A stretch of DNA of 64,000 bases from Eledone cirrhosa (Eukaryota). The stretch lies in assembly GCA_964016885.1 (NCBI GenBank), contig OZ024741.1, positions 193,936,001 through 194,000,000 on the forward strand, in the 5' to 3' direction. Within the stretch, counting starts at the first letter, position 1; every line of letters begins with the position of its first letter. The translations under genes and the position numbers were made by a program. The notes below the pieces were generated by a model. The model was not told the DNA's origin. It saw nothing but the letters and a program-made list of their open reading frames with translations, and did no database searches. Positions 1 through 64,000 of this stretch are shown here, one piece after another.

Positions 1-581
1 ATAACATACCCATCTAAACCCATATATTATTAATACATCTTAATATATTTTAATTAAATTTTAATTCAATTTTTAACTAAAGTTTTTAATTAAATTCTAA
101 CTATATTTTTTTATCCTTAATTTAATTTTTTAACTTATCATTATAAATGTTATAAACAGCATAATGAACGTTATATTTACGTTCTGAGTATTCATCCATG
201 TAAAACTTATTTCTTCGTTCGCTTCGCTTCTCTTCACTATCACTATGCATAGTCTTGTCTTTTCTTCTCTTTTTCTCTTTCTCTTTTCTTCTCTCTCCCT
301 TTAATTATTCTTTCTCCCTCCCTTTCAATATTTTTTTCTCTCTCCCTCTCAATATTTTTTCTCTCTCCCTCTCAATATTTTTCCCTCTCCCTTTTACATC
401 ACCTTTCTTCCAACAGTTTAATTTAAATAAACCGTTGTTTTTTTAATTTTTCTGACACTCATTTGCATACTCACTCATAACTTTGTATCACCCTCAATAA
501 AATATTATCTCCACTATCCAGTGAACTTCAAGGTTGTCTTTTTGTCCGGGTATGTCAATATTTATTTATAAAACAAATCTG

Positions 582-647
582 TATTTTATCTGATGAAAGC
601 GCACCATAATTTGCCTTGGTTGCCCTTGAAATATATATAATAAAATA
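582..647 (+). ncRNA. Minimal type I hammerhead ribozyme motif in a short Penelope-pLTR/retrozyme-like repeat (repeat about 540-690)
   Basis: tattttat-CTGATGA-aagcgcacc..ggttgccctt-GAAA-tatata-TA-ataaaata. Perfect 8-bp stem I, imperfect stem II, palindromic stem III loop, UA cleavage site after 639. Same family as 55796-56104. Confidence 0.75.
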
Positions 648-704
648 ATTATGGTTTTATAAATATAGTTTCCATTTATTAATATATTGTCTATATATAT
701 TGTA

Positions 705-6835: not shown

Positions 6836-6907
<72 letters not shown>
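6799..6907. repeat. (TG)n and (GA)n microsatellites
   Basis: Direct reading. Confidence 0.95.
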
Positions 6908-6912
<5 letters not shown>

Positions 6913-10674: not shown

Positions 10675-11049
10675 AGGTAAGCAGCAGACAGCTACGGGAA
10701 AGCAGACAGCAAACACCAGACGGCCTCTGTACCACGAAACGATAAACAGCCACGGGAACACCAAACACCACAATACCTTTGTAATTGTAATACGTTCCCT
10801 TCACCACAACTGGATCACGTAAATATTGGTATGTTGGTTCATTTGTAATATAATAAACACATATAAACAAAATAAACATCACCATTATTTACATTGTTGA
10901 ATATAACTCTCGTTGTGGTTATTGTCTTGTTTACGCACACACCCACTCACTTGTTATAATTCCCACTTACGAATATGGTAAATAGACGAGGGACTTTCCC
11001 TCACGTCTATATTGATAAACAATCCAACTAGGATACTTCATTTACCACA
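10675..11049 (+). repeat. 5' LTR (first 78 bp missing)
   Basis: Matches 15927-16302 with about 3 differences seen. Confidence 0.93.
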
Positions 11050-12469: not shown

Positions 12470-12508
12470 CGGCGGATAGTGCGCTCTGCGAAACATCATC
12501 CAACCGCC
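12445..12508 (+). promoter_or_regulatory. Programmed -1 ribosomal frameshift signal (slippery heptamer plus H-type pseudoknot)
   Basis: G GGA AAC in the gag frame, 6-nt spacer, stem cagagtcacta/tagtgcgctctg, loop ggcgg pairing with ccgcc at 12504-12508. The -1 frame is the protease frame. Confidence 0.85.
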
Positions 12509-15500: not shown

Positions 15501-15627
15501 GCCTGTTCCTGAACCACCATCATCGCCTGTCCCTACACCACCACCATCGCCACGTTACAAGACCACGACCCGTTCAGGTCGTAGGGTCCACTGGCCCAAA
15601 CAATTTTGCAGCACCGTCTATATTTAG
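12445..15627 (+). pseudogene. pol: Gypsy pol (protease, RT, RNase H, integrase) with frameshifts and stops
   Basis: [25 protein letters not shown] (YIDD mutated), VDAS, LTDHKPL, integrase zinc-binding region, [20 protein letters not shown] and YTGPY. Stops at 14764 and 15169. Confidence 0.95.
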
Positions 15628-17261: not shown

Positions 17262-18760
17262 TGTAACGGAATTCTCCTATGTTTTACCTGGCGAAGATTC
17301 GAAACCGAATCTAAAAGTTCTCGCCTCTAAAACCACCTATTATTAGGAATTCTCACCATTGTCCTGTCAAAAGACAACTATGATAAACATACAGTATATA
17401 CTACTTGACCTGTGACCCCAGACACTTTACAGATGAAATACACATCCTTCTAGCTATGGTATTATTATAAATTGGCAGTATCGGTAGAGAGTCGGACGCC
17501 ATGCTTTCCAGCATAGTTACGTCCCTTTACGATCTGAGTTCAAATCCCGCCGAGGTTGACTTTGCCTTTCATCCTTACGGGGTTGATAAAATAAAGTACC
17601 AGTAATGCACTGGGTAATTGCTGGCCTTGTGCCTAAAGTAGAAACAATTATTATAAATACAATCGCTTGGAGAACCGAACCAGAGCGTACGAAGCAGCAG
17701 TCCTAGAGAGAATAACGATGTAACACATTCACTTTCTACAGGCCCATTGGGGTCTACAGACCTTTTACTCTCTCTCTCTCTCCTGACATGCTCTCACCTT
17801 CTCGGCCACAGACTACACCAGTAGAGATAGTGATAACACAGGAGAGAAGAAAGTTCTGCTAACACTATGAATATCTCTTCACGAATACAGTCTTCTAGTT
17901 ACTATGCTCTCACATTTTTCATACCAGCTCAACAGAGTGACCACTACTACAGGAACAACGTATACTAATATACTAAGGATAAACACACACACATACATAG
18001 TAGGTTTCCTTATATTGTTCCCTACAACACTATCTATTCTTTCGCCTTCCTGTCATTTCCCTACTACTGTAAAACACAACACTTTTACTATATCATTTTA
18101 TTTGACACATGCATTTACGCTAGCTCGAAGTAGCTACTAGGAAATTAATGTAGTGATAATTGCTGTAACGATTTTATTGCTCGATATTCGATGCACCAAC
18201 AAGTGAATTTTGTTATTGTAAAATAAACATTGTCAACATCACAATTCTGGCATCATTCTTTTTATCATTCATCCTGCAAAGAATACAGCTATTTGCTACA
18301 TAATGGTGACCCCCATCACTATATTCTTGTTAAAGTAAATTCTCATAATTAAGGTTCACTCTGGAAAATCAGATTCGAAATCAGAAGCATTTATTACAAA
18401 TTAAATAACCGTCATCATAATATTACAAATAAAAATAAAAGGAAAAAAAAACACACAAGCAGGTAATACACACAGTTGGGACCACATACAACAAAAAGCA
18501 GGCGAGAGGAGTGGACAGACGAACCGCTGGCAGATCAAAAGACAACAGTATCGCAAGGAGCACTGGGAAACCTCTCTAATCATTTGTTTAGACAAGCCAG
18601 AACGCTCGCAGCGTTACCTCGGGTGATGGCGAGGCTGATGCGCTGGAACAACCAAACGCCTTCACGGTAAACGCCCTCGGTAAAGCGAGCCGCCAGTGAA
18701 AACAAGAACCTTGCAGTCAGCGGCCCAATTCCCCCAAACGTCCCGAACGCCACAGGCTGG
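17262..18760 (+). mobile_element. Remnant of a second LTR retrotransposon: 5' LTR (about 17262-18300, SINE inserted about 17468-17655), PBS and leader
   Basis: TGTAAC...GCTACA termini, AATAAA near the end, then taaTGGTGACCCC (tRNA-Trp PBS) at 18304. The LTR start is uncertain. Confidence 0.6.
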
Positions 18761-20191: not shown

Positions 20192-20790
20192 ATTATTTAT
20201 TCAAAGTAAGAGCGGTGGATTGGCAGTATCAGTAGGGCGGTGGATTGGCAGTATCAGTAGAGGGTCGGACGCCATGCTTTGACGCATAGAGTTACGGCCC
20301 TTGCCATTCTGAGTTCAAATCCCGCCGAGGTTAACTTTGCCTTTCATCCTTATGGGGTCGATAAAATAAAGTACCAGTAATACACTGGGTAATTGCTGGC
20401 CTTGTGCCAAAAGTAGAAACAATTATTTATTCAAAGTAAGAGCGGTGGATTGGCAGTATCAGTAGGGCGGTGGATTGGCAGTATCAGTAGAGGGTCGGAC
20501 GCCATGCTTTCCAGCATAGTTATGTCCCTTTACGATCTGAGTTCAAATCCCGCCGAGGTTGACTTTGCCTTTCATCCTTACGGGGTCGATAAAATAAAGT
20601 ACCAGTAATGCACTGGGGTAATTGCTGGCCTTGTGCCTAAAGTAGAAACAATTATTTATTCAAAGTAATCCCGCCGAGGTTAACTTTGCCTTTCATCCTT
20701 ACGGGGTCGATAAAATAAAGTACCAGTACTGTACTAGGTAATTGCTGGCCTTGTGCCAAAAAGTAGAAACAATTATTTATTCAAAGTAAT
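20192..20790 (+). mobile_element. Tandem array of three Nin-core SINE copies
   Basis: Two full copies and one 5'-truncated copy, each bounded by attatttattcaaagtaa. Confidence 0.88.
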
Positions 20791-26535: not shown

Positions 26536-27301
26536 TCTCCTTATAATATATAACCAGCAATTTCTCTGTCTGTCTGTCCGACAGTGGAAACACGTGCGCG
26601 CGTGGTTGCTATCTCTCTCTCTCTCTCCAGCTATCCCTCTCTTTTAGTCTGTCTGTTTCTCTCACTCTCACTCTTTCTCTTTGTAACACACTAACATTCC
26701 TCCCCTCTATCGCTGTGACGAATGGGGAGATGGAGGAGGAGGAGGAGGAGAGAGTCACTTCGTCACTTCACCTCTGCCTTTCTTTCTCTCCCCTCACTCC
26801 CTCATTACGTACAGACATTAGGGCGGTGGATTGGCAGAATCTGTAGAGAGTCGGACACCATGCTTCATAGCATGGAGTTACGTCCCTTTAGGGTCTGAGT
26901 TCAAATACCGCCAAGGTTAACCTTACCTTTCATCCTCACGGGGTCGATAAAATAAAGTACCAGTAATGTACTGGGTAATTGCTGGCCTTGTGCCAAAAGT
27001 AGAAACAATTATTAGAAACATTGCTTCATTTTTACATATCTAAGCATTAGTAAAATAACTAATAATTTCAAAAGTAATTTTTCAATTCCAATTGTTATGA
27101 ACAGCAAAACATTAATAATAATTTTGTTCTAAGAAATATATATACATTTCTGTGTGTGTAATATATATATATACACACAGAAATATATATACATTTCTGT
27201 GTGTGTAATATATATATACACACAGAAATATATATACATTTCTGTGTGTGTAATATATATATATATACACACAGAAATATATATACATTTCTGTGTGTGT
27301 A

Positions 27302-27332
<31 letters not shown>

Positions 27333-27358
27333 GAAATATATATACATTTCTGTGTGTG

Positions 27359-27399
<41 letters not shown>

Positions 27400-29375
27400 G
27401 AAATATATGGGCATTTCTCTGTTTTCTGTCTGTCTGTATGTCCTTCCCTAAAACTCAAATGTAGGTGCTACAGAAATATTACCTTCCCCTTCCTTTCTCC
27501 ACTTTGGTACTACCAAGAGAAACACTGTCGCTATAGAAACATTACCTTCCTCTCTCCACTGTCTTTGGTCACTGAGGCCGAGGGAATCGCTGGTTGCTAT
27601 AGAGACACCTTGCACAAGCCAGAAATAACCAGTTCGAGGTGGTTCTGACTTGACACCATGCCAAGTCTACTTATAATATATAATGGGCATTTCTCTGTTT
27701 GTTTGTCTGTCTGTCCGTCTGTAAAAAATGCCAAGAAAACAAATAGACGCGGTTTCAAATCTCTATGCTTTTCAAATTCATTACATTAATCTTTATTTAT
27801 ACGTTTCGCTTTATGAGTGTTTCGACTTACAAGTGTTTCGGCTTACGAGTGTTTCGGCTTATCATTATATATAAACGTTTCTATTTCCATCGTTTTATCG
27901 TAAACGTTTATATATTTCCATCGTTATATCATAACGTTTATGTATCATAACGTTTATATTTCCGTCACTAATCTCTTTTCTCCTTTTTCGTTTTAACATA
28001 TATTTATTTCAAAGATTTCACCGTATAGATAACATATATATTTTTACATGCATAAAAGACACACCGAGAGACGGTGAACATGTGGTGCCGAAAACATTTC
28101 TCATCCAAATCTCAACAATATCAGTATATACACTAGATTTGCTAGCAGAAAACCGCCCACCGGGTGGTTTTCTGCTAGTCTATATATATAAAACTGAGAA
28201 TGTCTGTCTGTGTGTGTGTGTGTCTGTCAGTTTGAATCCCTAAAACTCGAGAAGTACCCTAGGGCCCGCATTAGGTGAAAAACTGCGTTTTTTCAGCTTT
28301 TTAGGGGGTTTTTTAGGCGTTACGTCAGACCGATTTCCTTGAAATTGTAACTATGTATTAGTCAGTCTCTTCTTCATACCGTGAGCAAAGAAAATCCAAC
28401 TTTTTATGGCATAGGTGAAAAACTTCATTTTTTCAGCTTTTTAGGGCTTTTTTGGGTCTAGCCGATTTTCCCGAAATTTCAAGGCATATTATGCACATAA
28501 AAAAATTCATTTTCTTGATCCCCTAGGCCCGCATTAGGTGAAAACCTGCATTTTTCCTGCTTCATCGAGGAAAATATTAAAGATTATCCAGCCATCAGAG
28601 TATTCGGTTTATTTTCTTTACATATTGTCCAGGCATGCAGTTTTTCCACGATTAGGTCTGTTGGCAGCCCACGTTCCAAAATACCCTGAATCATCGAGCG
28701 CTTGCCACACATCTCGGAAGTTGTTTTTCGTTAATTCCTAAGCCGAAATACGATTCTCGCTAATTTATATTTGTATTAAACCCACAGTCTAGCTATTGAC
28801 CAGTTAATTTTCTTGATTTTTTTAGTTGATTCTATTGACTGATGAATAGCTTATGTTATCTTTAACCATTCTGTCAAGAGCTTTATTCGATTTGTGATAT
28901 TTTTCATTCTTACAATATTATACACAACTGAATTCATTCGCCTAAAATAAGTGTTGCCTCCCTTGCTGAACTCCACGTGGGGTCAGTAATAGTCACACTT
29001 TGGATTAGCAATTGAGCAAAAACCTGTTGATAAAGTGGCTTCCTTGTTCAATCATCTTACCAGAAGCCTAACATTTTTTATGTAAGCGGACAGTACTTGA
29101 TTTAGGAGTCGCAGAAACCCAAATACTGGATTTTACCAACCTTCCAGGGGTCCGGGTAAATTTTCAATCACATATATTTTTATTGTTTGACCCAAATTAC
29201 TTGGTCGTTTCTTTGGCTGTGCGGATGTTTGTTTAACCATCATCTCAGTGTGTTTGGCCTTTAAGGTATGTTGTAGCTCTGATTCATCTGATTCATCAAG
29301 CGCTTGCCACACATCTCGGAAGTTGTTTTTCGTTAATTCCTAAGCCGAAATACGATTCTCGCTAATTTATATTTA
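26536..29375 (+). mobile_element. Cluster of non-autonomous Helitron-like elements (with nested SINE 26820-27012)
   Basis: Repeated 5' motif TC..tataatatata..(tctg)n at 26536, about 27666 and 28179. 3' hairpin plus CTAG|T at 28142-28179. Internal direct duplication 28691-28770 / 29295-29375. Confidence 0.55.
27132..27408. repeat. Minisatellite with variable (TA)n core
   Basis: Unit cagaaatatatatacatttctgtgtgtgtaa(ta)n caca, about 5 copies. Confidence 0.92.
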
Positions 29376-31857: not shown

Positions 31858-32106
31858 CAAGAAGAAGGCAGATTAGAGTTTACGAAAGTCAAGGAAAATG
31901 CAGAGATTTCAAGCATCTTTATATAGAATGTTATAATCAAGGAATTGTTAAATGAATTATTTTTTTTTTATAAATTCCATCATTTGTGATGGGTACTATG
32001 CTAGTTATTATATACTAGCTAGCACGTCCGGCTACCATTGGCGTGTTCTACGGCATCCAGATATATATATATAGCTGACTTGGATAAACAGACGATAAGC
32101 CATCTG

Positions 32107-32495
32107 TGTATTACTGTTGAAAATATATAGTATAGTATTATTGTTGAAAATATATAGTACAGTACATTATTACTGTTGAAAATATATAGTATAGTATTAC
32201 TGTTGAAAATATATAGTATAGTATTACTGTTGAAAATATATAGTACAGTATTACTGTTGAAAATATATAGTACAGTATTACTGTTGAAAACATATAGTAT
32301 AGTATTACTGTTGAAAATATATAGTACAGTATTACTGTTGAAAATATATAGTACAGTATTACTGTTGAAAACATATAGTATAGTATTACTGTTGAAAATA
32401 TATAGTATAGTATTACTGTTGAAAACATATAGTACAAAATTACTGTTGAAATATGTAGTACAGTATTACTGTTGAAAATATATAGTATAGTACAG
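32107..32495. repeat. 27-bp minisatellite inside a minus-strand Helitron-like remnant (from about 32016)
   Basis: Unit tattactgttgaaaatatatagtatag, about 14 copies. 32025-32108 is the reverse complement of 39594-39688. Confidence 0.9.
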
Positions 32496-32782
32496 TATAT
32501 ACTATATACTGTGAACGCAGAAGTAAATATTTCATTTTGCTATATTGAATTCCTATAAGGTAGAAGATGCTTTTATATCTACAGCCCCACTGCCGTCACC
32601 TTGTTCTACCTCCCTCCATTTATTTTTATATAATCAGAGCCAAAATAAACCAATATAGCTATCTTTTAGTCAACATTCAGTCACAGCTTAGCTTCACATT
32701 CAAATATTTCTTGTTTTTTCTATATTTTGCATGCACTTTTCCCATGTAAGATTATAAATATTGGCTATTTTTCCTCTTTCAG

Positions 32783-34840
32783 ATGAAATTAATGGTCAGT
32801 GTGAACCTGTTGGAGATAGTTTGAAGATAGTGGAAGCTGTTAGGAATTCTTCCAAGATAGCAGAATCTAAAGAATTAAAGTCAGTGGAAGCTGGTGATGA
32901 TGGTTTAAAGCGAGTGGAAGATGTTGGGGATTGTTCAAAGAAAGTGGAAGATGTTAGAGATAATTTAAAAGTGGCAGAATCTATTGGAGATAGTATGGAC
33001 TTAGTAGATAATGTTGGAGATTGTAAAGACATGGTAGATGGTGTTGGAAATCGTTCAAACACATGGAAAATTGATGGAAATGGTTTAGATACAGTGCGAG
33101 TTGAGAGAGATGGCTCAAAGGCTGTGGAAACTATTGGAAATGATTCAGAGGTTGTGGAATCTATAGGAGATAGTTCAAAGGTTGTTGAATCTATTGGAGA
33201 TGATTCAAAGGCTGTGGAATCTACTGGAGATGATTTAAAGCTAGTTGAATCTACTGGAGATGATTCAAAGCCTGTTGAATCTATTGGTGATGGTTCAAAG
33301 GCTGTTGAATCTATTAGTGATGGATTAAAGGCTGTGGAATCTATTAGTGATGGTTCAAAGGCTGTTGAATCTATTGATGATGATTCAAAGGCTGTTGAAT
33401 CTACTAGAGATGGTTCAAAGGCAGTTGAATCTATTGGTGATGGTTCAAAGGCTGTTGAACCTATTAGTGATGGTTCAAAGGCTGTGGAATCTATTGATGA
33501 TGGCTCAAAGGCTGTTGAATCTATTTCTGATGGTTCAAAGGCTGTTGAATCTACTGGAAATGATTTAAAGGTTGTTGAATCTAATGGAGATGGTTCAAAG
33601 GCTGTTGAATCTATTGGAGATTGTTCAAATGCTGTTGAATCTACTGGAGATGATTCAAAGGCAGTTGAATCTAATGGAGATGGTTCAAAGGCTGTTGAAT
33701 CTATTGGAGATTTTTCAAATGCTGTTGAATCTACTGGAGATGATTCAAAGGTTGTTGAATCTAATGGAGATGATTCAAAAGTTGTTGAATCTACTGGAGA
33801 TGGTTCAAAGGCTGTTGAATCTATTAGTGATGGATTAAAGGCTGTGGAATCTACTGGAGATGATTCAAAAGTTGTTGAATCTACTGGAGATGATTCAAAG
33901 GTTGTTGAATCAAATGGAGATGGTTCAAAAGTTGTTGAATCTACTGGAGATGATTCAAAGGCTGTTGAATCTACTGGAGATGATTCAAATGCTGTTGAAT
34001 CTACTGGAGATGGTTCAAAAGTTGTTGAATCTACTGGAGATGATTCAAAGGCTGTTGAATCTAATGGAGATGGTTCAAAAGTTGTTGAATCTACTGGAGA
34101 TGGTTCAAAGGCTGTTGAATCTACTGGAGATGATTCAAAGGTTGTTGAATCTACTGGAGATGGTTCAAAGGCTGTTGAATCTATTAGTGATGGATTAAAG
34201 GCTGTGGAATCTACTGGAGATGATTCAAAGGTTGTTGAATCTAATGAAGATGGTTCAAAAGTTGTTGAATCTACTGGAGACGGTTCAAAGGCTGTTGAAT
34301 CTATTGGAGATTGTTCAAATGCTGTTGAATCTACTGGAGATGATTCAAAGGTTGTTGAATCTAATGGAGATGGTTCAAAAGTTGTTGAATCTACTGGAGA
34401 TGGTTCAAAGGCTGTTGAATCTACTGGAGATGATTCAAAGGTTGTTGAATCTAATGGAGATGGTTCAAAGGTTGTTGAATCTATTGGAGATTGTTCAAAT
34501 GCTGTTGAATCTACTGGAGATGATTCAAAGGCAGTTGAATCTAATGGAGATGGTTCAAAAGTTGTTGAATCTACTGGAGATGGTTCAAAGGCTGTTGAAT
34601 CTATTGGAGATCGTTCAAAGGCTGTTGAATCTACTGGAGATGGTTCAAAGGCTGTTGAATCTATTGGTGATGGTTCAAAGGTTGTTGAATCTATTGGTGA
34701 TGGTTCAAAAGCAGTGGAATCTACTGGAGATGGTTTAAAGACAAAAGAAGTTGTTCAAGATGGTTCAAAGACAGTGGAATCTAAGGAAATGACTACAAAC
34801 ACTTTGGATGACACACAGAAGAATGCTGCTAACAATAACG
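32783..34840 (+). CDS. DNAAF1: DNAAF1 putative giant exon encoding acidic decapeptide repeats (AVESTGDGSK-like)
   Basis: ttcctctttcag acceptor, G|gtaatt donor, phase 1-1, 686 open codons. 54 in-register 30-bp units at 33121-34740. Confidence 0.72.
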
Positions 34841-37699
34841 GTAATTAATCCCCTTTCAATTAATATTAGAAATTAATCAGAAATAACATTGTATATTGAT
34901 GTGTGTTTCTGGTAACTTTCCATACTGAGTACAACTTCTCCCTAGGTGATATATCAAAGAATTGATTTCTTTTGAACTTTGACTGGTCTCGTACATATTA
35001 ATACATTTCTATAAAGTCTTTGGTGGTACACTAACTAGAAATGTGTTCTAATAAGCTCTCACTTGGTTCTTACATATTAAGAGACTGCCCGAAGATAAAA
35101 ATCTTCACTCGGGCTCTAACCAGATGCTTGTTGCAATTTGGAGATGATATATTAGCATTATATTAACGGGCATTATAGAGATTTTGAAAATGATGTAAAA
35201 TTGTAAGTATGAGAGATTCCCAATATGAAAGATTGTAAGTATGAAATATTCACAATATGAAAGATTGTAAGTATGAAAGATTCACAATGTTTCATGCCGA
35301 TTATTTATTTTTTTGATGAAAAGGCTGACAAAAGTAAACAGAAAAAACGAATGCATCTGTTTGTCTAAAATAGAGTTATTTATTTTGTCGAATATTTGAT
35401 TTGCAGCTATGTTCAAACCTTTGGTTAATTTGTGGAAACCACAAGGTTAACAATAAGAGAATCATGACGAATTGGTGAAGCTAAATTGTAAACTATAGAC
35501 GTTTACATGTTTAGTAGTCATTATCACCTTTTAGCATGATTGCCACTTCAGGAAGATGGAGATGTAGAAGTGTTCCAATGGTTCAAAAAGTATAGATCAA
35601 AAGGCGTAGTTTTTTTAAAGAAAAATAATTTATTTTCCCAATTGGCTTGAATACGTGAACAAAGTGAATGCAGCAAGATGTTAGTGAAATAAATGTTTTT
35701 TCTCTAGTAGGCTAAAAATGTAGTGAGACAGGCACTAATTTATCCTTAATTACTGTCACTATCAAAGTTGATCACAGGAAGGGCAATAATGTTGCATCCG
35801 TAAGGGATTAGAATATTTGATAACACAAAGTTGACAGATAAATGGTAAATCTCTGAAACGCCATCTAAAGACCTACTCTCAATGTTAGAGAGAAAAATCA
35901 AAAACAGTGGGAAAGCTAGTTATCGAGCTGTTGCACTACCAGCGTCCAAAACGTAACTGTATTCATACGTCACCAACCCTACAGGGCTGGCGACTGACCA
36001 AGCATGACCAAATTATGCCACAGCGATAAAATAGTACTATCATGTCTTGCTACACATGAAAAAGAGACAGGTAAGCTAGTGATGTGGACAAGGAATTTAA
36101 AAAGGGTAAGAGATGTAATACATGACAGGCTGTCAGTCAAGTGACCTGGGGGTTCAAACAGTGGCCGAAATTGGCCACAGCTAACTCTGTTGCTATCAAA
36201 GTTTATGACCGAATAAGGGGAAGTGAGCTGATGGCACACCACAAAAAGACACCCCGCAGGTTCAGGATTTTTGTGACAGAATCTACTAACATATAATACC
36301 CTTGTGTATTTGTCTGTCACACACTAGAGATGACTGAGGAAGGAAGGGGTGATAATGTCAACTTAGGAAGGAAGGGTTGATAATATCAACTGAGGAAGGA
36401 AGGGGTGGCAGCATCTAATATATGATTATGTCAGGTGTTTGTGTGTGTATGTGTATATGTGTTTGTGTAAATTATATTTCTATATAATATTTGTCTGAGT
36501 GTATATGTGTTTGTGTGTGTTTATTTAGAAAGATACATAGACAATAGAATTACAAACACACACCCATCTACACATACACATATATAAACAGACACGCTTA
36601 GAAAAAATAAGTGTTACATGCACATATATCTATGTGATGACTGAGGAAGGAGGGGGTGAGAAACTATAGGTGTCCATCATTCTAAGATTCGTCACAGCTG
36701 TGTGTTTGTATGTGTATATCATTTGTGTGAGTGAGAGGGAAGAAACCAACCAACAAACATCTCTTTTTTATATTACAATTAGTCATCATTTTTGATGGCA
36801 TGGGGTCATCTAGTTTTATAAATATTAATAAAACTGTAAGGTGGTTGTGTGGGTGTCACAATAAAAAGCACCCAGCACACACTGTAAATGTGGTTGGCAT
36901 TAGGAAGGGCATCTAGCTGTAGAAATCTAGCCAGAAACAGTTCTATATGAGCAAGACATGGTCACCTGACCCAACTTGCCTCAAATGGAACAACCCATCA
37001 AACCCATGCTAGCGAGGAAAGTGGACGTTAAACGATAATGATGAAGATGATGATACTAATACATACAATATGAAAATAGTTATACTTTCATACAGTAACA
37101 ACTTGGCTACTGTATGATTTTGCCACAAGTTTGAAATTGATTTTTTTGTCCTGGAATATCAAATATTGTTTTAGATAACCTTTCAACTGTGGATTAGGTA
37201 TTAGCCAGGTTGACTGAGACAAATAGCAATGGGATATATCTTATCTTGGATTGGGATGTAGCTGTAACTTGGATTGGGTCTTAAATATTGAAGCAGACTT
37301 TGCTAAAGATACATATGAGGCAGGTGGAGGAGGTAAACCTGGCAACATATTAAGTCTATCACTCAAGAAATGGAATATTTCTACTAATCAGCTTCCACAC
37401 AGCTTCTGTCTATCAATTTCCCTCACAGGGCTTTAGTTAACCTGAGGGTATGGGAGAAGATACTTACCCAATGTTCCATGTAGTGGAATCAAATCTAAAA
37501 CCATATAGTTGTAAAACAGAATTTTAACCAAAGAGGCATATCTATACCTAATATTTCGAGTGTACATTTAAAGGGTATTGTCATCATCACTGTGACTGCT
37601 GCCGACACCTTTGTTGTTTCACATCTATTTTTCCATGCTTGCATGAGTTAGATGGATTGTCACATTCGAAGGCTAGACTAGCATGGCTTGAGATGAATA

Positions 37700-42075: not shown

Positions 42076-43166
42076 GTGAGTACTGTCTGCTAATGTTGAT
42101 ATAAAGGTGTGGGTACTCTCCCTTGGTAAAAGAGGTACAGTTGATAGGATAGGGAGTATCGTTTTTTATGAAATATGTGAGTACTCTCTATTGATAGCAG
42201 AGGGAATATTGATATAATAGGGAGTAATGTCTGTTAATGTTGATATAAAGGTGAGAACTCTCTTGATACAAGAGGGAGTACTGTCTGTTTATGTTGATAT
42301 AAAAGTGTGAGTACTCTCTCTTGATATAACAAGGAGTATTGTCTGTTGATGTTGATATAAAGGTGTGAGTACTCTCTTGATACCAAAGGGAGTACTCTCT
42401 TTTTATGTTAATGATGATATAAAAGTGTGGTTTTAATATAAAAGCTAGTACTATTTGTTAATATTAATTTAATATAATAATAATGAAATTATTGTGTACA
42501 GTGCTCAGGTGCACTACAACTTTAGATATCTTGACTGTCTACAACTTTAGATATCTTGACTGTCTGTAGTAGGTTGTTAGATCAACCTTACAACCTAGGT
42601 TAACACCAACACTTGGTCCTTGTGTGTCTTTAGTAGGGTGGTAGGTGTAATACACCCAATCATTGTGTTGCATTTTGGGGTGAGGTGGGAGCAAATAAAT
42701 CACCCATTTACCACCACCTTTGTGACTGTGCCAAATAAATTTTAATCAGATGTGGTAATCACTACATGTTAGATTCTATGTACACTACTATAGCTGAATA
42801 GACATATCTTGAACATGTTTGATCATAAGTCCAGCAATTCAAAAGCTGACCTTGAGCTAAACAACTATAGCTTTAGCCATCACATTGGATAATGTAGTCT
42901 TAGCTAGACCACTATGTCTGAATAAAAGATTGGCTGGTCTACCAGTATAGAAATAAGTACATACAAAATGAAAATGATGATGGCAGTTATGATGATAATA
43001 AATTAACTGTGTAGACTTTCCATGTAATAATCAGTAACATGGTTGCCAAGCAATTGAGATATATGAGGTTCAAGTGCCATCTGTAGGCCTATTGCTGTTT
43101 CTTGTGTAAAATTGGTGCTTTTAATTATCTAATTGTTGTGTTCTTATGGGGGTCTCTACTGTGCAG

Positions 43167-43388
43167 GTATTTATAGAATCGAGAACCTTGAAGAATATGT
43201 TGGATTGAAGTGTCTGTGGTTAGAATGTAATGGCTTGAATAAAATTGAGAACCTTGATTACCAAGTTGAAATGAAGTGTCTCTATCTGCAACAGAACCTC
43301 ATACATAAAATTGAAAACCTGGAACCTATGCAAAAGTTATCCAATTTAAATTTGTGTAACAATATGATTGAAACCATTGAGAATTTGT
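43167..43388 (+). CDS. DNAAF1: DNAAF1 LRR exon ([22 protein letters not shown]...IENL)
   Basis: SDS22-like LRRs. gcag acceptor and T|gtaagt donor, phase 1-1. Confidence 0.97.
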
Positions 43389-44349
43389 GTAAGTATCATC
43401 TTAAATGTCTATCTCTTGTGAATGATATGAAGAACAGGCTGGTACCAGGCTTGCAAGGCAGACTAACTTAGTAATGCTTTTTTATCAGGTTTGTTTGGCA
43501 GACTAACTTGTTGTTATAGTTCACATCTGCACAGGTGATGCCAACCTCTTATGAGGTTGGATCTCATAGGTTTCTTGGGTGTTTTAGTGCTTGGGGTTTC
43601 AATCCTGTTACCAAGCTTACTTTGGGAAGGTATGAAGGACAGCCAGATTTACTTTGAGCAGATATTAAGGGCTGGCTGGCTGGTTTTATCTGCTTAGTTT
43701 GGCAAGTCTTCTTTTATCAGGCTGTTTCCCAATGGTTTGGAGATCACACTTTGGGAAATGAAAGTATAAGTGAATACACTTTAACTGAAAATAATAAAGG
43801 AGAGTCCTGATAGTGGTTGGATTATGTACCATATCACCTACTGATGGATTAAGATATATAAGTTTGATAGTCTGGCTTAGATGGAAGTAAGTGCTCTTCT
43901 TTATATGGCCTCTAATATGTAAGATATGAGAGACTGACTCAAGTGAAGGTATGAGTGGTGGTGAATGTCTTTCTTATATAACCTTTAATTTATGGAAATT
44001 TAAGTGTCTGAGTTGAGTGAAGATATGTTGGAGCTGGATGTCTTTATTGTATGGAAATTTGAATGTCAGATTAAGGTGAAGGTGATGTCTTTATTTAGAT
44101 ATATGAAAATGTGAGTGTCTGATTTGAGAGGAGTCTTTCTTATGAACATTGAGTATGGAAATTTATTAGTGCGATTCAAGTGGAGTTGGATTATAAAATT
44201 TATATGGATAACACTTAGATATGAAGTAGAAATACAATACCAAACTCAATATGAAAGTTGGTGTGGAAAATATTCCCATTTAATTAGAATTATCAAATAT
44301 ATTTATATTGAATTGTTATACTCATTATGTAATCCTATAATTATGTAGG

Positions 44350-47825: not shown

Positions 47826-48393
47826 TAATGATTTATGATTTATTATCCATATATCGTTTATAACAGATTTGCATTTTTTTTAATAGTGACAGCCAAATGG
47901 CTAAAATGTTAGTGTAATCAGCAACACACATTGGCATGAAATATAAATCTTGTGGTCCCTCTGGACAGTTGAAACTTGTGGTCTCTCTCTCTGGACAGCA
48001 GTAACTCAAGTAGATGAGTGGAATATTACTGAGTGAAAGAGGGGGGAAGACAGATAATGAATTGCAGAGGATGATGGGGATAGATCCAGTAATGGTTGTG
48101 AAGAGAAATAGAATGAGATGACTGAGTCATGTGTTGAGGAAGGATGCAAGTGAGAGGAGTGATGGAAATGAATGTGGAAGGAAGTAAAGGAAGAGGAAAA
48201 CCAAAAAAGACATGGTTAAATATGAAGGAGGAGGAAATAAAAGCTTGGAGTTGGTGAAAGGGTGAAGGGAGGTATAGAGGATAGGGAGCCTGCAAGGCTT
48301 TAGCAAGAAAAATGGCCATCAAATGTTTTTTGTTGTTGCTGTTGTTTTATTGAATTGTAATCAAATTATCAAATATTTCCTATCTAATTACAG

Positions 48394-48563
48394 CATGCTT
48401 GCCCCAACTCTCAACTCTACAAATGATCCACAACAAACTGTACAGTTTAGAATCTATAATCCACCTCAAAGATTGTTTAGCCATTAGTGTGTTAGATCTT
48501 TCACATAATCGACTGGAACAACCAGAAATTGTGGAAGAGGTGTTTGCCAAAATGCCTTCCTTG
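48394..48563 (+). CDS. DNAAF1: DNAAF1 LRR exon (SCLPQLSTLQMIHNKL...VLDLSHNRL...MPSL)
   Basis: tacag acceptor and gtttgt donor, phase 1-0. Conserved LRR. Confidence 0.95.
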
Positions 48564-49186
48564 GTTTGTATTTCTTCCAATATTGTTATCATTGTTGTAG
48601 TGGTGCTGGTGGTGGTGGTGATGTTTGTGGGGAAGGCGATGGTAGTGTATTGGTGTTGTTGCTATTATTGGTAGTGGTGATAGAATACAATAAAGTACAA
48701 AAATTATATTTACCGAAGCCAGGAAGCCATGTTTGACCACACACATAGAAATTTACATTTGAATTGGCAGTATCAGCAGGTGTTAGACAACATGCTTTGT
48801 GGCATACAGTTAGATTCTGAGTTCAAATCCCGCTGATGTTACAGGTCGATAAAATAAAGTACTAGTAATGCGCTTCTCTCAAAATTGTTGGCCTTGTACC
48901 TAAATCAGAAACCATCCTTATATTCTTATCAAAATCTCAAAGAAAATTGTTTCAATGAGTACTCAATAAATGTTAATTAAAATTTATGAATAGTGTTTAC
49001 ATATTTATTAGAACTTTTGGCACTATGGTAGAAATTCCATGCTTCACTGTAATAAATTATTGAAATGGGAATTGCTAACATAGAGCCTAAAGCATTTGTA
49101 TATAGTGTGTGTGTGTTTATGTACATGTATGAAAGACAGACAGAGTTAGTGAAAGCTGGTCCTCTAGATATATATATATATATCTA

Positions 49187-53917: not shown

Positions 53918-55460
53918 AGGGTCATTCCATGTCAAATCACCCAGAGGGTCCCAGGTCACCGCCTCAGAACCCCCTGAAAAAATTCATACTAGCTCCTGTA
54001 TCTATATGATGGAAAAATATCAAGTATTAGGTCAATATCTTTGATAGTTTTGAAATTGTAGGCCTTTGAAATATTAATTAATTATACATTTTTTTTCTGA
54101 ATGAGCCTCTCGGACCAACATGAGACAACCATTTCTCCTCTACAAGGTGGGCACAACTTTGAAATCATGTGTTTGGGGCTAACTTTTTCTGTAGAGTTCA
54201 AATATCTTATCAAATCAAGTGTATCTTGTATATCTTTCCATCTACAGGCCTCTGAAAATTGCCAAGAATTAAACGTACAGCAAATGTATGCCTATTTTAG
54301 CTATTTCTATCTCAATAGGAACACTAGATAAAGCGACCATAATTGTTTTCCTGTTACTTAGCATATAGTAGACTATTTCTGAGCAGTAACCATGTTAGTT
54401 ACTATTATGGGAATGTCAGAATAGTTTTTTGAAATATGTGCGATTTCGGAAAATGCCCATTTGCAGCCATTAGTTGACCATGTGGGAAGTTTACTATCGT
54501 TTTCAAAGTTTTACCATGCATTCTTATATTTCTGAAAATGATATGTCAACAATTTGGTTTTGTTACTGAGCTTCCTTTCAGAGTTGTGAATTTTTAGAAA
54601 TTCAGTTGTCAGTGCTTTGTACAGGATCAACTTATTCATAAAGCATGAATATAAAACAGCATATTATCCATCAGTGATTTATTCAATATAGTATAAATAA
54701 ACATCTTTTAAATTAATGGGTATTTATTGATTCAACAAATGGCAAACTACTACAAGTATATCCATAACCACATTTTACATGATAATGCCACACATAAGAC
54801 ACAAATTTCTAAAAATTCACAACTCTGAAAGGAATCTCAGCAACAAAACCAAATTTTTGACATATCATCTTCAGAAGTATAAGAATGCAGGGTAAAAAAT
54901 TTTAAATGATAGTGAAATGCTCACATAGTCAACTAAGGGCATCAAAATGGGCATTTTTTGAGAAATTCTGAAATCGCACATATTTCAAAAAACTATTCTG
55001 ACACTCCCATAATAGTAACTAACATGGTTACTGCTCAGAAATAGTCTACTATATACTAAGTAATAGGAAAACAATTGTGGTCGCTTTATCTAGTGTTCCT
55101 ATTGAGATAGAAATACCTAAAAGATGCATACATTTGCTGTATATTTAATTCTTGGCAATTTTCAGAGGCCTGTAGATGGAAAGATATACAAGATACACTT
55201 GATTTGATAAGATATTTGAACTCTACAGAAAAAGTTAGCCCCAAACACATGACTTCAAAGTTGTGCTAAAAAAATGTACAATTAATTAATTGTTTCTACT
55301 ATTGGCACAAGGCCAGCAATTACCCAGTACATTACTGGTACTTTATTTTATCGCCCCCGTATGGATGAAAGGCAAAGTTAACCTCGGCATATGTATAATT
55401 AATTAATATTTCAAAACTATCAATGATATTGACCTAATACTTAATATTTTTCCATCATAG
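53918..55460. mobile_element. Fold-back / long-TIR non-autonomous DNA element
   Basis: About 54005-54605 is the reverse complement of about 54800-55460. A SINE fragment is inserted at about 55290-55390. Confidence 0.85.
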
Positions 55461-55841
55461 GTGTGTTTGGATGAGTGTGTGTGTGGTGAAGGGGGTGTTA
55501 GTGGGTGTTAGTATACTGGTGGTGGGGAAAGGGTTGAATGCGGGTGTTAGTGGGGGTCAGTGGTGGTAGGGTGTGTAGAGTGGATGGTGTAAGTGGGTGT
55601 GTGTGTTTGTGTGCGTGGGGTCGGGTTGGGGTGGGGGGGGGGGGGTTAGTGATATTAGTTGTGGGGTGGTGGGGGTGGGGGTGAGGGTTAGTGGTGGTAG
55701 TAGGGTGTGTGGTTAGTGTGAGCGCGTGTATATATGTACCGGTGGGTGTGTGCATGTGATAAGGGGAGGGGGAGAAGAAAGGAGGGATATACATGTATCA
55801 ATGATATTAATAAATGGAAACTATATTTATAAAACCATATT

Positions 55842-55902
55842 TATTCTATTATATATATTTCAAGGGTACCAAAACTTTGGTACACTCTCATCAGATAAAA
55901 TA
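55842..55902 (-). ncRNA. Minimal type I hammerhead ribozyme motif
   Basis: tattttat-CTGATGA-gagtgtacc aaagtttt ggtaccctt-GAAA-tatata-TA-atagaata. Confidence 0.75.
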
Positions 55903-55997
55903 CAAAGTTTGTTTTATAAATATTGACATATCCAGGAATGAGTCCTTAACGGTTCAAGTTTTACCTGGATATGTCAATATTTATAAAACGAACTTTG

Positions 55998-56058
55998 TAT
56001 TTTATCTGATGAGCACATACCAAAGTTTTGGTACCCTTGAAATATATATAATAGAATA
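55998..56058 (+). ncRNA. Minimal type I hammerhead ribozyme motif (base of stem II damaged)
   Basis: tattttat-CTGATGA-gcacatacc..ggtaccctt-GAAA-tatata-TA-atagaata. Confidence 0.62.
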
Positions 56059-56226
56059 AATATGGTTTTATAAATATAGTTTCCATTTATTAATATCATT
56101 GATATTATACTCCAGAAAATCTGTTGAGTGCTTCGAATCTGTTATAAATATATTTGTTGAATTACCAACAAATTAAATATCCCTTTGCTTATATACATGT
56201 ATATACATATATATGTATATATATAT

Positions 56227-57917: not shown

Positions 57918-58645
57918 TATTACTTTGCCTTTCATCCTTACGGGTTCGATAAAATAAAGTACCAGTAATGCACTGGGTAATTGCTGGCCTTGTGCCTAAA
58001 GTAGAAACAATTATTATTATTATTAGGGCGGTGGATTGGCAGTATCGGTAGAGGGTCAGACGCCATGCTTTGACGCATTGAGTTATGGCCCTTGCCATTC
58101 TGAGTTCAAATCCCGCCAAGGTTAACTTTGCCTTTCATCCTTACGGGGTCGATAAAATAAAGTACCAGTAATACACTGGGTAATTTTGTGTCAAAAGTAT
58201 AAACGATTATTATTATTATTACTATTATTATTAGGACGGTGGATTGGCAGTATCGGTAGAGGGTCTGGCGCCATGCTTTCCAGCATAGTTACGTCCCTTT
58301 ACGATCTGAGTTCAAATCCCGCCGACGTTGACTTTGCCTTTCATCCTTACGGGGTCGATAAAATAGAGTACCAGTATTGCACTGGGTAATTGCTGGCCTT
58401 GTGCCTAAAGTAGAAACAATTATTATTATTATTACTATTATTGGACTTGCAATATCAATAGAGCGTTGGACAACATACTGTGCGGCATAGAGTTACGACC
58501 CTTTATGCTCTGAGTTCAAATCCCTCTGAGGTTAGCTTTACCTTTCATCCTTACGGGGTCAATAAAATAAAGTATATTTAATTTACTTTCCCCTCCTGCC
58601 AAAATTGCTGGCCTTGTGCCAAAAGTAGAAACAATTATTATTATC
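57918..58645 (+). mobile_element. Head-to-tail cluster of about 4 Nin-core SINEs
   Basis: Repeated SINE consensus separated by (TTA)n tails, starting about 10 bp after the exon donor. Confidence 0.88.
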
Positions 58646-60859: not shown

Positions 60860-61630
60860 CCAATAGTAATTCAAGCAGGTTTGCCACTGATCGTTTGTAA
60901 TACTAAAGTCACAATGATCTGTTGCTTATTGTATATATTTCTAGCATGTGTGATAGACTATGTAACACTAAAGTATGTACATTGTGTTGTGTTTATCTAT
61001 TTGTATCACATGTGACACTGTAGGTAGTACTAAAATAACTATGTTCTGTTGTGTTTGTCATATCTATTTCTACCACATGTGTTATGATAGGTCATACTAA
61101 AGTAACTATCTTCTTTTGTGCTTATCTAGTTGATGCACATGTGTTACCATATGGTACATTAAAGTATTTTCTATTGTGTTTATCATATATATTCATAGCA
61201 TATAATACTATATGTAACATATCTTGTGTTTATTATATCTATTTGTAGCAAATGTGAATACAATGTGTAGTACTACAATATATATGCTGCATTTATTTGC
61301 AGCACATATGTAACACTAAAATATATTTGCTGCATTTATCTATTTGCAGTGCACATGACACCACATGTAACACTAAAGTCTATATGCAGTCTTCATCTAT
61401 TTGTAGCTCATATTCACCATATGTAGCACTAAAATATATTAGCTCTCATATTTATTGCATTTATTTGTAGCACATTTTACACCATATGTAGCACTAAAGT
61501 ATAAATGTTGTTTGTTTGCCATAACTATTTGCAACACTCAAATAACCATGTTCTCTCATGCTTATCACATCTATTTGTAGTACATTATACATAACATTCA
61601 AGAATGTATGTTCTCCTGTATCTATTGGAA
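60860..61630. repeat. Degenerate tandem repeat (about 55-60 bp)
   Basis: Recurring atctatttgtagcaca..accatatgtaacactaaagt. Confidence 0.75.
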
Positions 61631-61640
61631 CTATTTATAG

Positions 61641-62011
61641 CTCTGATGAAGATTCGGCAAAAGAGTGAGGCGAAGAGAATTCAGAAGAAACTGGATGGAG
61701 AATGGCAGGAACGAGGAGATGCAGACAATAATCAAAGAGAAGTTGTTATTGAGGAAAGTATTGACTGGTTGTATGGAACATACAAGACTGAATGGGTTGA
61801 TATAAAGGAGAGAGAGAAGAAAGATGAGGAAAAGGTAGAGAAAAAGGAAGGAAATGAAGGAAACACAACTGAACTGAATCAAAAAGATGGAAGAGAAGTT
61901 GTGGAAGAGAAAATAGATGAATGTACAGAAGTAGATAAAGATATTCAAGAGGAGAAAAGTATGGAAGAACAACAGAGTAAAAATGTGGAAAAGAAGAAAG
62001 AGGTAGAGTAA
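61641..62011 (+). CDS. DNAAF1: DNAAF1 exon (ALMKIRQKSEAKR..., Glu/Lys-rich). 3' end uncertain: donor at 62003 or 62008, or stop at 62011
   Basis: tatag acceptor in phase 1 gives DSVD-ALMKIR, continuing the conserved helix. Confidence 0.85.
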
Positions 62012-63220
62012 AGAATTTCTTAGTTTTGACTATCATTATAATTTGTATGAATATATTGTATGAGGTATATATTGTAAGGAATAGCTGTCTGTCTCTCTAT
62101 CACATGTGGTGTTTCTATTAGGGCCTTATTGTTACTTATTTTAATTGGTTTATATAATAACATTAATTAAGTTGATAACAAAATATGATGACAATATATT
62201 TTATATAAAATCACTTTTCAATGTGTTGGTGTAAGGAAAGAGGGAACATGCATGCATATCTGTGCATATGCACACACACATTTAGACATATGTGAGGACC
62301 CTTTAGTCATGTCAAAGACATAATAACCTCCCTAGTGCCAGTGCCATAATAAAATGCAGTCAGCAGGCATTGTAAAGTGGTTAGTGTTAAGAAAGAAATC
62401 TAACTGTAGAAATCATGCCAGAAATTGGAATATATATTCAAAATTTGGTCTTTTGATTCATCTAGGAGAGCAATACTTCTGCGTAAGAACTGACTTGAAC
62501 TGTGACAATCTATTTAACTCAGGCCAGCATGGAAAACACATGTAAAGTGAAGACAGAGATGACAGCAGAATGTTGAAGCTGTTGGGGGAATTTGTATGTT
62601 TGAAACCATGCTGAAAAAGTGTTATGAGAATTCATTAGTTGCATCAAGAGCGTGACAATCTCTAGTGTTGGTGTCATGATAAAATACATCCAGTATACTC
62701 TGAAAAGTGTTTGGTGATAGGAAGGCACCAAGTAGTAAATTTGACAAACAAAGAGTTGAAAGGATTCTTCAGTTGTGTTAAAGATATGGCAATCTCCATA
62801 GTGCTGATGCTATGATAAAACATGCCCAGTATACTGTATAGAATATGGGAATAAATGTAAACATATGCACTCCTTGGCTTGTCAGGGATGTCATTAGTTC
62901 TGGATGGGTACTGACTTGGTCTATGATGACCCCCCTAACCTTTATTAGCAGGCAAAACAGAGAAAGAAAGACCATGATTAAATGAGTTCTTACATATTAA
63001 TTGTGGGAAACTGTAGATTGTATGTTTTATTACAATTTTCAGTTCAATGCTGAATTATTCTCTCACTCTTGTTCATCAGGAGTTAACATTTGTCTTAAAA
63101 ACACACATGATCATTATTTAATATCCATTTTCCCTGCTAGCATATGTATGTGTGTTTATATGTGTATCATCATTTTTATGTCCCCTTTTCCCTGCTTCCA
63201 AGGGTGGGACGGGAACTGAT

Positions 63221-63394
63221 TCTGGCTTGATTTCTACAGCTGGATGCCCTTCCTAACACCAACCTCATTTACAGGGGTCCCTATCATTCCACTGCAAAGT
63301 GGTCATGGAGGTGCCATGGCAAAAAAGCACCCAGCACTCACTGTAAATGAGGTTGGTGTTAGGAAGGGCATCCAGCTGTAGAAATCAAGCCAGA
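63221..63394. repeat. 54-bp inverted repeat of SINE-derived sequence
   Basis: 63221-63274 is the reverse complement of 63341-63394. The motif aggaagggcatccagctgtagaaa is also seen at about 36900 and 62380. Confidence 0.85.
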
Positions 63395-63607
63395 TCATTT
63401 CTACAGCTGAGTAAACTGGAGCAATGTGAAATAAAGTGTCTTGCTCAAGGAAACAACACATCACCCGGTCTGAGAATTGAACTCACAACCTTTCGATTGC
63501 AAGGCCAATGCTCTAACTACTAAGCCATGTGCCTCCATATTACATTTATATATATGTATATTTATATTAAAATACAAATATTAATAAAATAGATGTTCTT
63601 TTGATCA

Positions 63608-63670
63608 ATTACATTTTATTATACATATTTCGGATGTACAACAGTACGTCCTCATCAGACAAAATATAAT
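63608..63670 (-). ncRNA. Type I hammerhead ribozyme motif (best-formed in the window)
   Basis: attatattttgt-CTGATGA-ggacgtac tgtt gtacatcc-GAAA-tatgta-TA-ataaaatgtaat. 12-bp stem I with 2 G-U pairs, and stem II 7/8 paired. Confidence 0.82.
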
Positions 63671-64000
63671 GATACATGACATACCCTGAGATGTTAAATG
63701 GTTAAGATTTAATCAAGGTAGTGATTAACCTAAGAGAAAATTTTACATTTATACCCTAATTATGAGAAAATGCGAAAACGTAATAAATTCAATAGAGGAT
63801 GCGTGAGTAAGAAAAACGTTGCTTAATGTAACAGTCATAGAGATTTTAAAATGTATGATACTACAATTTATCTATGAAAACATCTCATGAATCATAACAG
63901 CCAGTGATAGCCCCTGGAAAAGGATTAATAGAGAGGGAAAGATAAGGGAATATGCAGAAGGAGATTTTTCCCAAAAGTTAAACGGTTAATTTTGAAAATA

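What the first reader, a model, noticed from the sequence alone, without database searches (positions are those of the whole stretch)
63608..63670. Well-formed antisense hammerhead from a further family, making the window unusually ribozyme-rich
Seen: intact core, 12-bp stem I, GC-closed stem II, near-palindromic loop III (tatgta) and a UA site. Stem I and loop III resemble the 582/55842 family while stem II is unrelated in sequence. With the other motifs this gives six clear and three or more decayed hammerheads in 64 kb, with no Penelope ORF recognised in the window. Inference: a large population of non-coding ribozyme retroelements in this genome.
Basis: partly seen in the sequence, partly recalled or inferred. 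Interest (0 to 1): 0.75.

Follow-up and report, generated by a model that had tools for sequence, protein, structure and literature searches.

The report
Hammerhead tail of Hydra-clade Penelope element
The self-cutting-RNA motif is real but ordinary: it is the tail end of a broken Penelope-type jumping gene whose protein-coding part lies just beyond the window, one of tens of thousands of related motifs in this genome, and it is predicted, not shown, to cut only weakly and in pairs.

Summary
The hammerhead is there as described (minus strand 63670-63608); a strict descriptor finds 3 in the window against 0.01 in shuffles. The inference of a non-coding element fails for it. The motif sits 56 nt from the 3' end of a 5'-truncated Penelope-like element (PLE) whose broken reverse transcriptase and GIY-YIG gene lies 1.4-3.1 kb past the window's right edge. 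In 20 of 30 loci holding the gene's start, the same end lies directly upstream as a pseudo-LTR. The protein carries the Hydra-clade motifs, and copies end in (TA)n. The 582 and 55842 motifs belong to sister PLE families, and their stem II is homologous, not unrelated. One pattern for this lineage matches 59,434 places (control 0), so the genome is ribozyme-rich and the window only mildly so (4 against 1.3 expected). Only a 314-bp family at 5879-6592 looks truly non-coding. Copies end at two fixed sites, each followed by a small hairpin that may mark where copying starts. The scan reached the same Hydra reading, hairpin included, on other DNA of this genome. Cleavage and expression are untested. 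Verdict: new member of a known kind.

The parts
63608..63670 (-). Type I hammerhead motif of the PLE pseudo-LTR: 12-bp stem I, CUGAUGA core, 7-bp stem II with one mismatch, GAAA, 2-bp stem III with self-complementary loop, UA site
63652..63658 (-). Catalytic core CUGAUGA
63632..63651 (-). Stem II and loop 2; a shortened form of the stem II of sister subfamilies
63620..63631 (-). GAAA, short stem III/loop III and UA; predicted cut between 63620 and 63619
   Evidence: cleavage not tested
63564..63619 (-). 56 nt from the predicted cut to the element's 3' end (end site 1; a few bases ambiguous because the end resembles the TA target)
   Evidence: 22 of 58 places end here
63537..63563 (.). Degenerate (TA)n tract into which the element inserted
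63671..64000 (-). AT-rich 3' untranslated region of the PLE. It continues past the window edge (L031 1001-2440; about 1.7 kb of UTR in all, plus a later roughly 200-bp insertion) to the broken RT plus GIY-YIG gene at L031 2441-4076 (G000:C2:194001441-194003076, minus strand), which lacks its first 226 or so codons and is frameshifted at a C run
1..700 (+). Related, separate insertion: 3' end of a sister Hydra PLE, hammerhead core at 590; its RT/EN remnant lies left of the window (L130 6840-8071)
55796..56200 (.). Related, separate insertion: inverted pair of 3' ends of another sister family, cores at 55894 (minus) and 56006 (plus)

Best explanation
The motif is the pseudo-LTR hammerhead at the 3' end of a dead, 5'-truncated copy of a Hydra-clade Penelope-like retrotransposon, which likely arose when the element's endonuclease cut a (TA)n tract and its reverse transcriptase began copying the RNA at an internal site 56 nt past the ribozyme's predicted cut site. 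Shown: the motif, the gene remnant beyond the window, partial-tandem full copies with the hammerhead about 212 nt before the ATG, two fixed 3' end sites, (TA)n flanks, and RT and GIY-YIG folds for a sister-subfamily protein. Inferred: transcription from a tandem copy, priming by pairing of the cut TA end with the AU-rich end site, and copying of RNA not cut at this ribozyme (the copy holds sequence on both sides of the cut site). Predicted: weak cleavage, needing two RNAs or two motifs to pair through the self-complementary loop III.
For:: 40 scored copies at 95-98% identity over 341 nt, 1,630 candidates; sharp end on the hammerhead side, ragged end on the other. RT and EN frames at L031 4064-3126 and 3133-2465, 93% and 86% identical to the 636-aa open frame of copy L077; 8 of 15 extended loci (picked as the longest) run on into the ORF; 20 of 30 gene-start loci have the 3' end directly upstream, 16 with a readable hammerhead; 6 have it only inverted, 4 have neither; of 58 places, 22 end 54-63 nt and 21 end 153-158 nt after the cut site, 14 run into the ORF, 1 ends at 126; 39 of the 43 ends at the two sites meet TA repeats (read by eye); the model of the 750-aa frame of L076 best matches telomerase RT (Z 16.6, rmsd 2.8, 260 aligned); its C-terminal domain matches I-TevI (Z 9.4, rmsd 2.4, 89 aligned), T4 EndoII (8.4) and UvrC (6.4). 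Hydra motifs present; stems I and II are kept with changed pairs across subfamilies (93% paired against 40-54% slid); stem III pair probability is 0.0 in the monomer.
Against: No activity or expression was tested. In 300 nt of context the predicted fold loses the hammerhead (stem I pair probability 0.01-0.02, stem II 0.3), and the loop III self-duplex is weak, -2.2 kcal/mol. Rfam does not call the motif. Pfam and PDB sequence searches did not recognise the protein; only 1 of 4 homologues scanned hit RVT_1, below cut-off. The folded protein is from a sister subfamily (77% and 67% identical to the window copy). No fully intact ORF was seen among the 14 longest candidates fetched. No tree with published Hydra proteins was built. 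The covariation rests mostly on three subfamilies, so on few independent events.
Confidence: 0.92

Rival explanations
1. The motif belongs to a non-coding, non-autonomous ribozyme element (retrozyme) that is copied as a small circular RNA by a partner PLE.
For: Most copies of these families lack an ORF; none of 45 top hits of the 55894 family showed one in line within 1.5 kb. A 314-bp unit with partial head-to-tail repeats and no ORF exists at 5879-6592. Animal retrozymes are described as PLE derivatives (10.64898/2026.07.22.740005).
Against: This copy is collinear with its own RT-EN remnant. The unit is about 4 kb, not 150-450 bp. 5' ends are ragged, as expected from truncation. No short tandem unit was seen in the 30 loci.
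Confidence: 0.04
2. The ribozyme is a passenger. It is kept by selection on the element lineage, but cleavage is not needed for insertion, and this genomic copy does nothing.
For: For a Poseidon PLE, hammerhead mutants did not affect insertion in vitro, and uncut RNA was the main substrate (PMC11167929, passages). Copies here carry 56 or about 155 nt beyond the cut site. The context fold is unfavourable. The motif faces away from the plus-strand host gene.
Against: Core and stems are conserved with pair changes while flanks diverge, which implies some function in the lineage. This rival concerns the role of cleavage and is compatible with the best explanation's identity.
Confidence: 0.35
3. 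The motif is a chance match in AT-rich DNA.
For: Folding z-score only -1.69; no Rfam call; stem I is mostly A-U.
Against: 3 against 0.01 in shuffles; 1,396 exact copies and 59,434 lineage matches with controls at 0; fixed position in the element; pair-preserving changes.
Confidence: 0.01

Closest known systems
Hydra clade of C-terminal EN+ Penelope-like elements (Craig et al. 2021, PMC8557442; read: passages, section 11, supplement part 2 and supplement search rows)
   Same: Single RT plus C-terminal GIY-YIG ORF; RW[KR], DKT, CxCx5C linker, CxxC and CxH around the conserved E and N; no CCHH finger; sense hammerhead near the 3' end; (TA)n targets; partial tandems and inverted 5'-truncated copies.
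   Different: The unit is about 4 kb with a 3' UTR of about 1.7 kb (listed Hydra consensus lengths are 1.1-3.0 kb). RWR replaces RWK. Stem III is 2 A-U pairs where listed Hydra motifs have 3-4 pairs starting AC. Stem I is 12 bp. The optional tail is about 100 nt against the 30-40 bp described for PLEs. The lineage has tens of thousands of copies.
Hydra-1_Obim (same paper, supplement rows seen)
   Same: By eye, the protein start, DKTNNLY, YRDD, WFAP and C-terminal motifs line up; (TA)n target.
   Different: Different family: its hammerhead stems differ, it is 2,507 bp, and it was listed with no pLTR. My 15-nt hammerhead and two peptide probes had 0 hits in the supplement text held. No alignment score was computed.
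Metazoan PLE hammerheads with short palindromic helix III (Cervera and de la Pena 2014, PMC4209133, parts 1-2 of 4 read; review PMC6765202, passages)
   Same: Type I motif in the pLTR, unstable helix III with palindromic loop, most genomic motifs single and tied to truncated PLEs, opposite-strand pairs 100-700 bp apart, predicted dimer cleavage with low activity.
   Different: Here helix I is long, and there is no bulged base after A9. The count (59,434) exceeds the 2,000-9,000 given there for other animals and is below the 'up to 120 000' in a section heading for axolotl (PMC7229834).
Poseidon PAc of the green anole (Frangieh et al. 2024, PMC11167929, passages)
   Same: Two internal reverse-transcription start sites that match two classes of genomic ends; AT-rich targets; insertion from uncut RNA.
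   Different: There the sites lie inside the ORF in an AC-rich stem-loop and the hammerhead overlaps the start codon. Here both sites lie before the ATG, about 100 nt apart, each followed by an RCTC...GAGY-GC hairpin.
Metazoan non-LTR retrozymes (PMC7229834, passages; 10.64898/2026.07.22.740005, part 1 of 5)
   Same: Type I hammerhead in a low-GC repeat; relation to PLE pLTRs.
   Different: Retrozymes are non-coding 150-450-bp tandem units; this element has its own ORF and a unit of about 4 kb.

Membership tests
Type I hammerhead (PLE form) | CUGANGA and GAAA cores with UH site, stems I and II closed | tested here: met
   stem I and II pair probabilities 0.6-0.99 in the 63-nt monomer
Type I hammerhead (PLE form) | Pair-preserving changes among relatives | tested here: met
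   166 places, stem II 93% paired against 40-54% slid, G-C/A-U/G-U and U-A/C-G swaps; few independent subfamilies
Type I hammerhead (PLE form) | Short stem III with self-complementary loop | tested here: met
   monomer stem III probability 0.0, self-duplex -2.2 kcal/mol; loop limited by the pattern to TATATA (97) or TATGTA (69)
Type I hammerhead (PLE form) | Match to an Rfam hammerhead model (a convenience test, not a defining character) | tested here: inconclusive
   none among 83 matches at E up to 1; the models need not cover this form
Type I hammerhead (PLE form) | Self-cleavage at the UH site | not testable with these tools
   needs a bench assay
EN+ Penelope-like element | One ORF with telomerase-like RT and C-terminal GIY-YIG | tested here: met
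   folds done on sister-subfamily frame L076; sequence libraries did not recognise it
EN+ Penelope-like element | Partial tandem pLTR, inverted 5'-truncated copies, optional tail | tested here: met
EN+ Penelope-like element | Hammerhead in the pLTR, sense to the ORF | tested here: met
   212 nt from cut site to ATG in L062
Hydra clade | RWK near the N terminus; DKG changed to DKT | tested here: met
   RWR and DKT in family copies; RW[KR] 68 of 84, DK[TS] 84 of 84 aligned proteins
Hydra clade | CxCx5C linker; CxxC and CxH around E and N; no CCHH finger in EN | tested here: met
   all three in the window copy's EN frame, one cysteine only before YI; 71, 83 and 81 of 84
Hydra clade | Insertion into (TA)n | tested here: met
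   39 of 43 free ends, read by eye
Hydra clade | Generally short, under 3 kb (a tendency in the paper, not a defining character) | tested here: not met
   about 4 kb; the excess is 3' UTR
Hydra clade | Groups with published Hydra proteins in a tree | not tested
   published sequences were only compared by eye
Naiad/Chlamys clade | EN N-terminal to RT; no canonical hammerhead | tested here: not met
   EN is C-terminal and the hammerhead is canonical
Non-LTR retrozyme | Non-coding 150-450-bp tandem unit with a hammerhead in each unit | tested here: not met
   for this family; the separate family at 5879-6592 partly fits
Non-LTR retrozyme | Circular RNA in cells | not testable with these tools
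   needs RNA data or a bench test

The most novel reading that the evidence does not exclude
In this Hydra lineage a small repeated hairpin (RCTC, loop, GAGY, GC), placed about 5 nt beyond each of two AU-rich sites 100 nt apart, is the signal that sets where reverse transcription starts. One start is used at each end of the cut (TA)n target, which would explain the two end classes, the uneven inverted arms and an expansion to tens of thousands of hammerhead-bearing ends.
Probability: 0.4. Interest if true: 0.5.

Novelty: new member of a known kind. Interest (0 to 1): 0.2.

Why it matters
As a single motif it matters little: PLE pseudo-LTR hammerheads, truncated copies and Hydra elements are all in print. 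Two points have some value. A clade described from a small number of families has expanded here to at least 59,434 intact-core motifs, about one per 50 kb, and its protein escapes the Pfam and PDB sequence searches I ran, so such copies are easily misread as non-coding. And the many young copies give two sharp end sites with a shared hairpin, which makes the open question of how PLE reverse transcription is positioned testable. The scan had already noted that lead on other DNA of this genome.

Tried and rejected
Rfam: no hammerhead call, only low-complexity miRNA-type matches. Pfam on 9 ORF pieces, phmmer and a profile against PDB sequences: nothing meaningful; identity came from motifs and predicted folds. 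Naiad was considered and rejected (EN position, canonical hammerhead). The 55894 family first looked non-autonomous, because copies found with short queries were short; a query further upstream found 3 of 25 copies collinear with the endonuclease end, so I rejected that reading. Core matches with one substitution at 32114-32443 come from a 27-bp tandem repeat and were rejected. Candidates at 8342, 39870, 54874 and 57221 were not followed up. Sequencing runs: no RNA holder listed; no reads were laid. Look-ups of earlier scan notes near the finding and by sequence returned nothing. Literature searches found no paper describing this family; an Octopus repeat annotation (PMC13282606, passages) mentions Penelope-like expansions but has 0 occurrences of hammerhead, ribozyme or Hydra in its main text. 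The library omits most subscription papers and Repbase or Dfam were not available, so the family may already be catalogued. Long sequence runs in the PMC8557442 supplement were cut, and the bioRxiv supplement was not seen. The host taxon was not tested.

Full report
Observation. The minus strand of 63670-63608 holds a complete type I hammerhead: a 12-pair stem I, CUGAUGA, a G-C-closed stem II of 7 pairs with one C.A mismatch, GAAA, TATGTA and a UA site with the predicted cut after 63620. A strict descriptor finds three such motifs in the window (590+, 55894-, 63658-) against 0.01 in 200 shuffles; a relaxed score agrees. Folding energy alone is not striking (z -1.69), and Rfam gives no hammerhead match. 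In the 63-nt monomer stems I and II form and stem III does not; in 300 nt of context the predicted fold mostly loses stem I.

What it belongs to. The window lies at G000:C2:193936001-194000000 in a 3.0-Gb genome. A 341-nt query around the motif gave 40 scored copies at 95-98% identity from 1,630 candidates. Across the 30 loci fetched, similarity stops sharply just past the hammerhead and ends raggedly on the other side, often beyond the window. That is the pattern of a minus-strand retroelement with a fixed 3' end and variable 5' truncation. The DNA right of the window holds two long minus-strand frames at L031 4076-3120 and 3292-2441. They are 93% and 86% identical to the 636-aa frame of copy L077, and start at its residue 227. 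So this copy lacks its 5' part and is frameshifted at a C run. Of 15 loci extended because they reached furthest, 8 run on into this ORF.

Full-length anatomy. I searched with the ORF start and fetched 30 of 40 matches. In 20 the hammerhead-bearing end lies directly upstream in the same orientation, in 6 only inverted, in 4 it was not found (two of the 20 are neighbours on one contig). Sixteen have a readable hammerhead, 212 nt before the ATG in L062. This is the partial-tandem pseudo-LTR layout of PLEs, with inverted truncated copies, as described in PMC8557442 (passages).

Protein. Pfam and PDB sequence searches did not recognise it. A homologue search with the 750-aa frame of a sister subfamily (L076) gave 189 proteins, the 120 listed at 31-40% identity, mostly unnamed. 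The model built on 84 sequences (pLDDT 84.6) matches reverse transcriptases, best telomerase RT (Z 16.6, rmsd 2.8, 260 aligned, tied with a DGR RT at 16.1). The C-terminal domain folded alone matches I-TevI, T4 EndoII and UvrC, all GIY-YIG nucleases, above the other rows. The motifs that PMC8557442 section 11 gives for the Hydra clade are present: RWR for RWK, DKT, CxCx5C, CxxC and CxH, no CCHH finger. The published Hydra-1_Obim lines up by eye but has a different hammerhead and length, so this is another family. I built no tree with published sequences. No complete ORF turned up among the 14 longest candidates fetched from 127 matches, so current activity is not shown.

The other motifs. The 590 motif ends a 2.9-kb truncated sister element whose RT and EN remnants lie 0.9-2.2 kb left of the window. 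The 55894/56006 inverted pair belongs to a family whose copies are mostly short, but 3 of 25 longer ones are collinear with the endonuclease end. Stem II of the three families is homologous: the same 3 pairs, mismatch and 3-4 further pairs, with intermediate forms in the genome. Over 166 places it is 93% paired against 40-54% when slid, with swaps among G-C, A-U and G-U; three subfamilies dominate that count. The pair at 6052/6391 has the hammerhead form listed for several Hydra elements in a 314-bp unit. It shows a 313-315-bp partial repeat in 6 of 20 loci and no ORF in line, and is the one candidate non-coding family.

Density. The exact 39-nt core has 1,396 copies. One pattern covering the three sister families matches 59,434 places, reversed control 0; it does not enforce stem II pairing. 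That predicts 1.27 per 64 kb. The window has 4, in three insertions (Poisson P 0.04 for 4, 0.14 for 3). The richness is a property of the genome. Published counts are about 2,000-9,000 minimal motifs in three other animals (PMC4209133, parts 1-2), about 5,000 in a mussel and up to 120,000 in axolotl by a section heading (PMC7229834, passages).

Mechanism. Of 58 distinct places, 22 end 54-63 nt after the cut site, 21 end at 153-158 nt, 14 continue into the ORF and 1 ends at 126. Thirty-nine of the 43 ends at the two sites meet TA repeats, and both sites end in an AU-rich run that could pair with a cut TA end (inference). The window copy ends at the first site. In 6 of 7 inverted pairs with two free arms, read by eye, one arm ends at each site. 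Two internal start sites that match genomic ends were shown for a Poseidon PLE, where hammerhead mutants did not affect insertion (PMC11167929, passages). Since copies carry sequence on both sides of the cut site, they were copied from RNA not cut there. Short palindromic stem III motifs are reported to cleave weakly and as dimers, and I predict the same here; the predicted self-duplex is weak.

Earlier scan notes. I reached the Hydra reading and the two end sites before reading them. Notes on other DNA of this genome give the same reading and add a hairpin lead; they are unchecked AI notes, not support. Testing the lead on 16 direct-tandem copies, a loose RCTC...GAGY-GC pattern follows the first site in 14 and the second in 14, about 5 nt on, and both fold as hairpins in L062. 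The window copy stops before the first hairpin.

Verdict. A real hammerhead of a known type, in a new family of a known PLE clade. The non-coding inference does not hold for it. Interest is low; what remains open is cleavage, expression and the role of the hairpins.

Noticed in passing
window 5879-6592: Inverted and partly tandem copies of a 314-bp unit with a Hydra-type hammerhead (cores 6052 minus, 6391 plus); 2,519 candidates, 313-315-bp repeat in 6 of 20 loci, no ORF in line. Likely a true non-autonomous, retrozyme-like family.
   Followed up: partly
window 55796-56200: The inverted hammerhead pair lies between plus-strand exons of an LRR gene. The copy on the gene's sense strand (56006) has three changes in the 5' strand of stem II that break pairs; the antisense copy differs only at the unpaired position. 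One case only, but it suggests a strand-bias test.
   Followed up: no
window 43133-43471, 48354-48674, 61595-62011, perhaps 32758-34848: Plus-strand exons of a leucine-rich-repeat protein gene; from recall it resembles DNAAF1/LRRC50, not tested. 32758-34848 is a 696-codon frame made of a 30-bp repeat.
   Followed up: partly
L031 4060-4095 (just right of the window): The 5' truncation point carries a 14-bp fold-back duplication, and no long inverted arm was found in the 10 kb fetched.
   Followed up: no
L031 about 1790-1989; window 20464-20659, 17471-17659, 58233-58429 and others: A roughly 200-bp dispersed repeat sits in this copy's 3' UTR, is missing at that place in most relatives, and has many copies in the window.
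   Followed up: no
window 54151-55266: Large inverted repeat (arms 96% and 87% complementary) with a CTGAAGA core at 54874 but no convincing stems; family not searched.
   Followed up: no
window 11864-15627 (+) and 691-2544 (-): Broken LTR-retroelement gag-pol frames, and a 617-codon endonuclease-RT frame of a LINE; both named from recalled motifs.
   Followed up: no
window 63213-63401 and 63470-63527: An inverted repeat of about 190 bp and a tRNA-like piece (Rfam 26.3 bits, below cut-off) lie just beyond the element's 3' end; unrelated repeats.
   Followed up: no
L061, L086, L088, L096, L103, L134, L153, L161: Further hammerhead families with other stems turned up in fetched flanks, some outside the lineage pattern, so the 59,434 count is a lower bound for the genome.
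   Followed up: no
window 27100-27410, 32100-32470, 10020-10790: Tandem arrays (a palindromic TA/CA unit, a 27-bp unit and a 58-bp unit); the first gives spurious miRNA matches.
   Followed up: no
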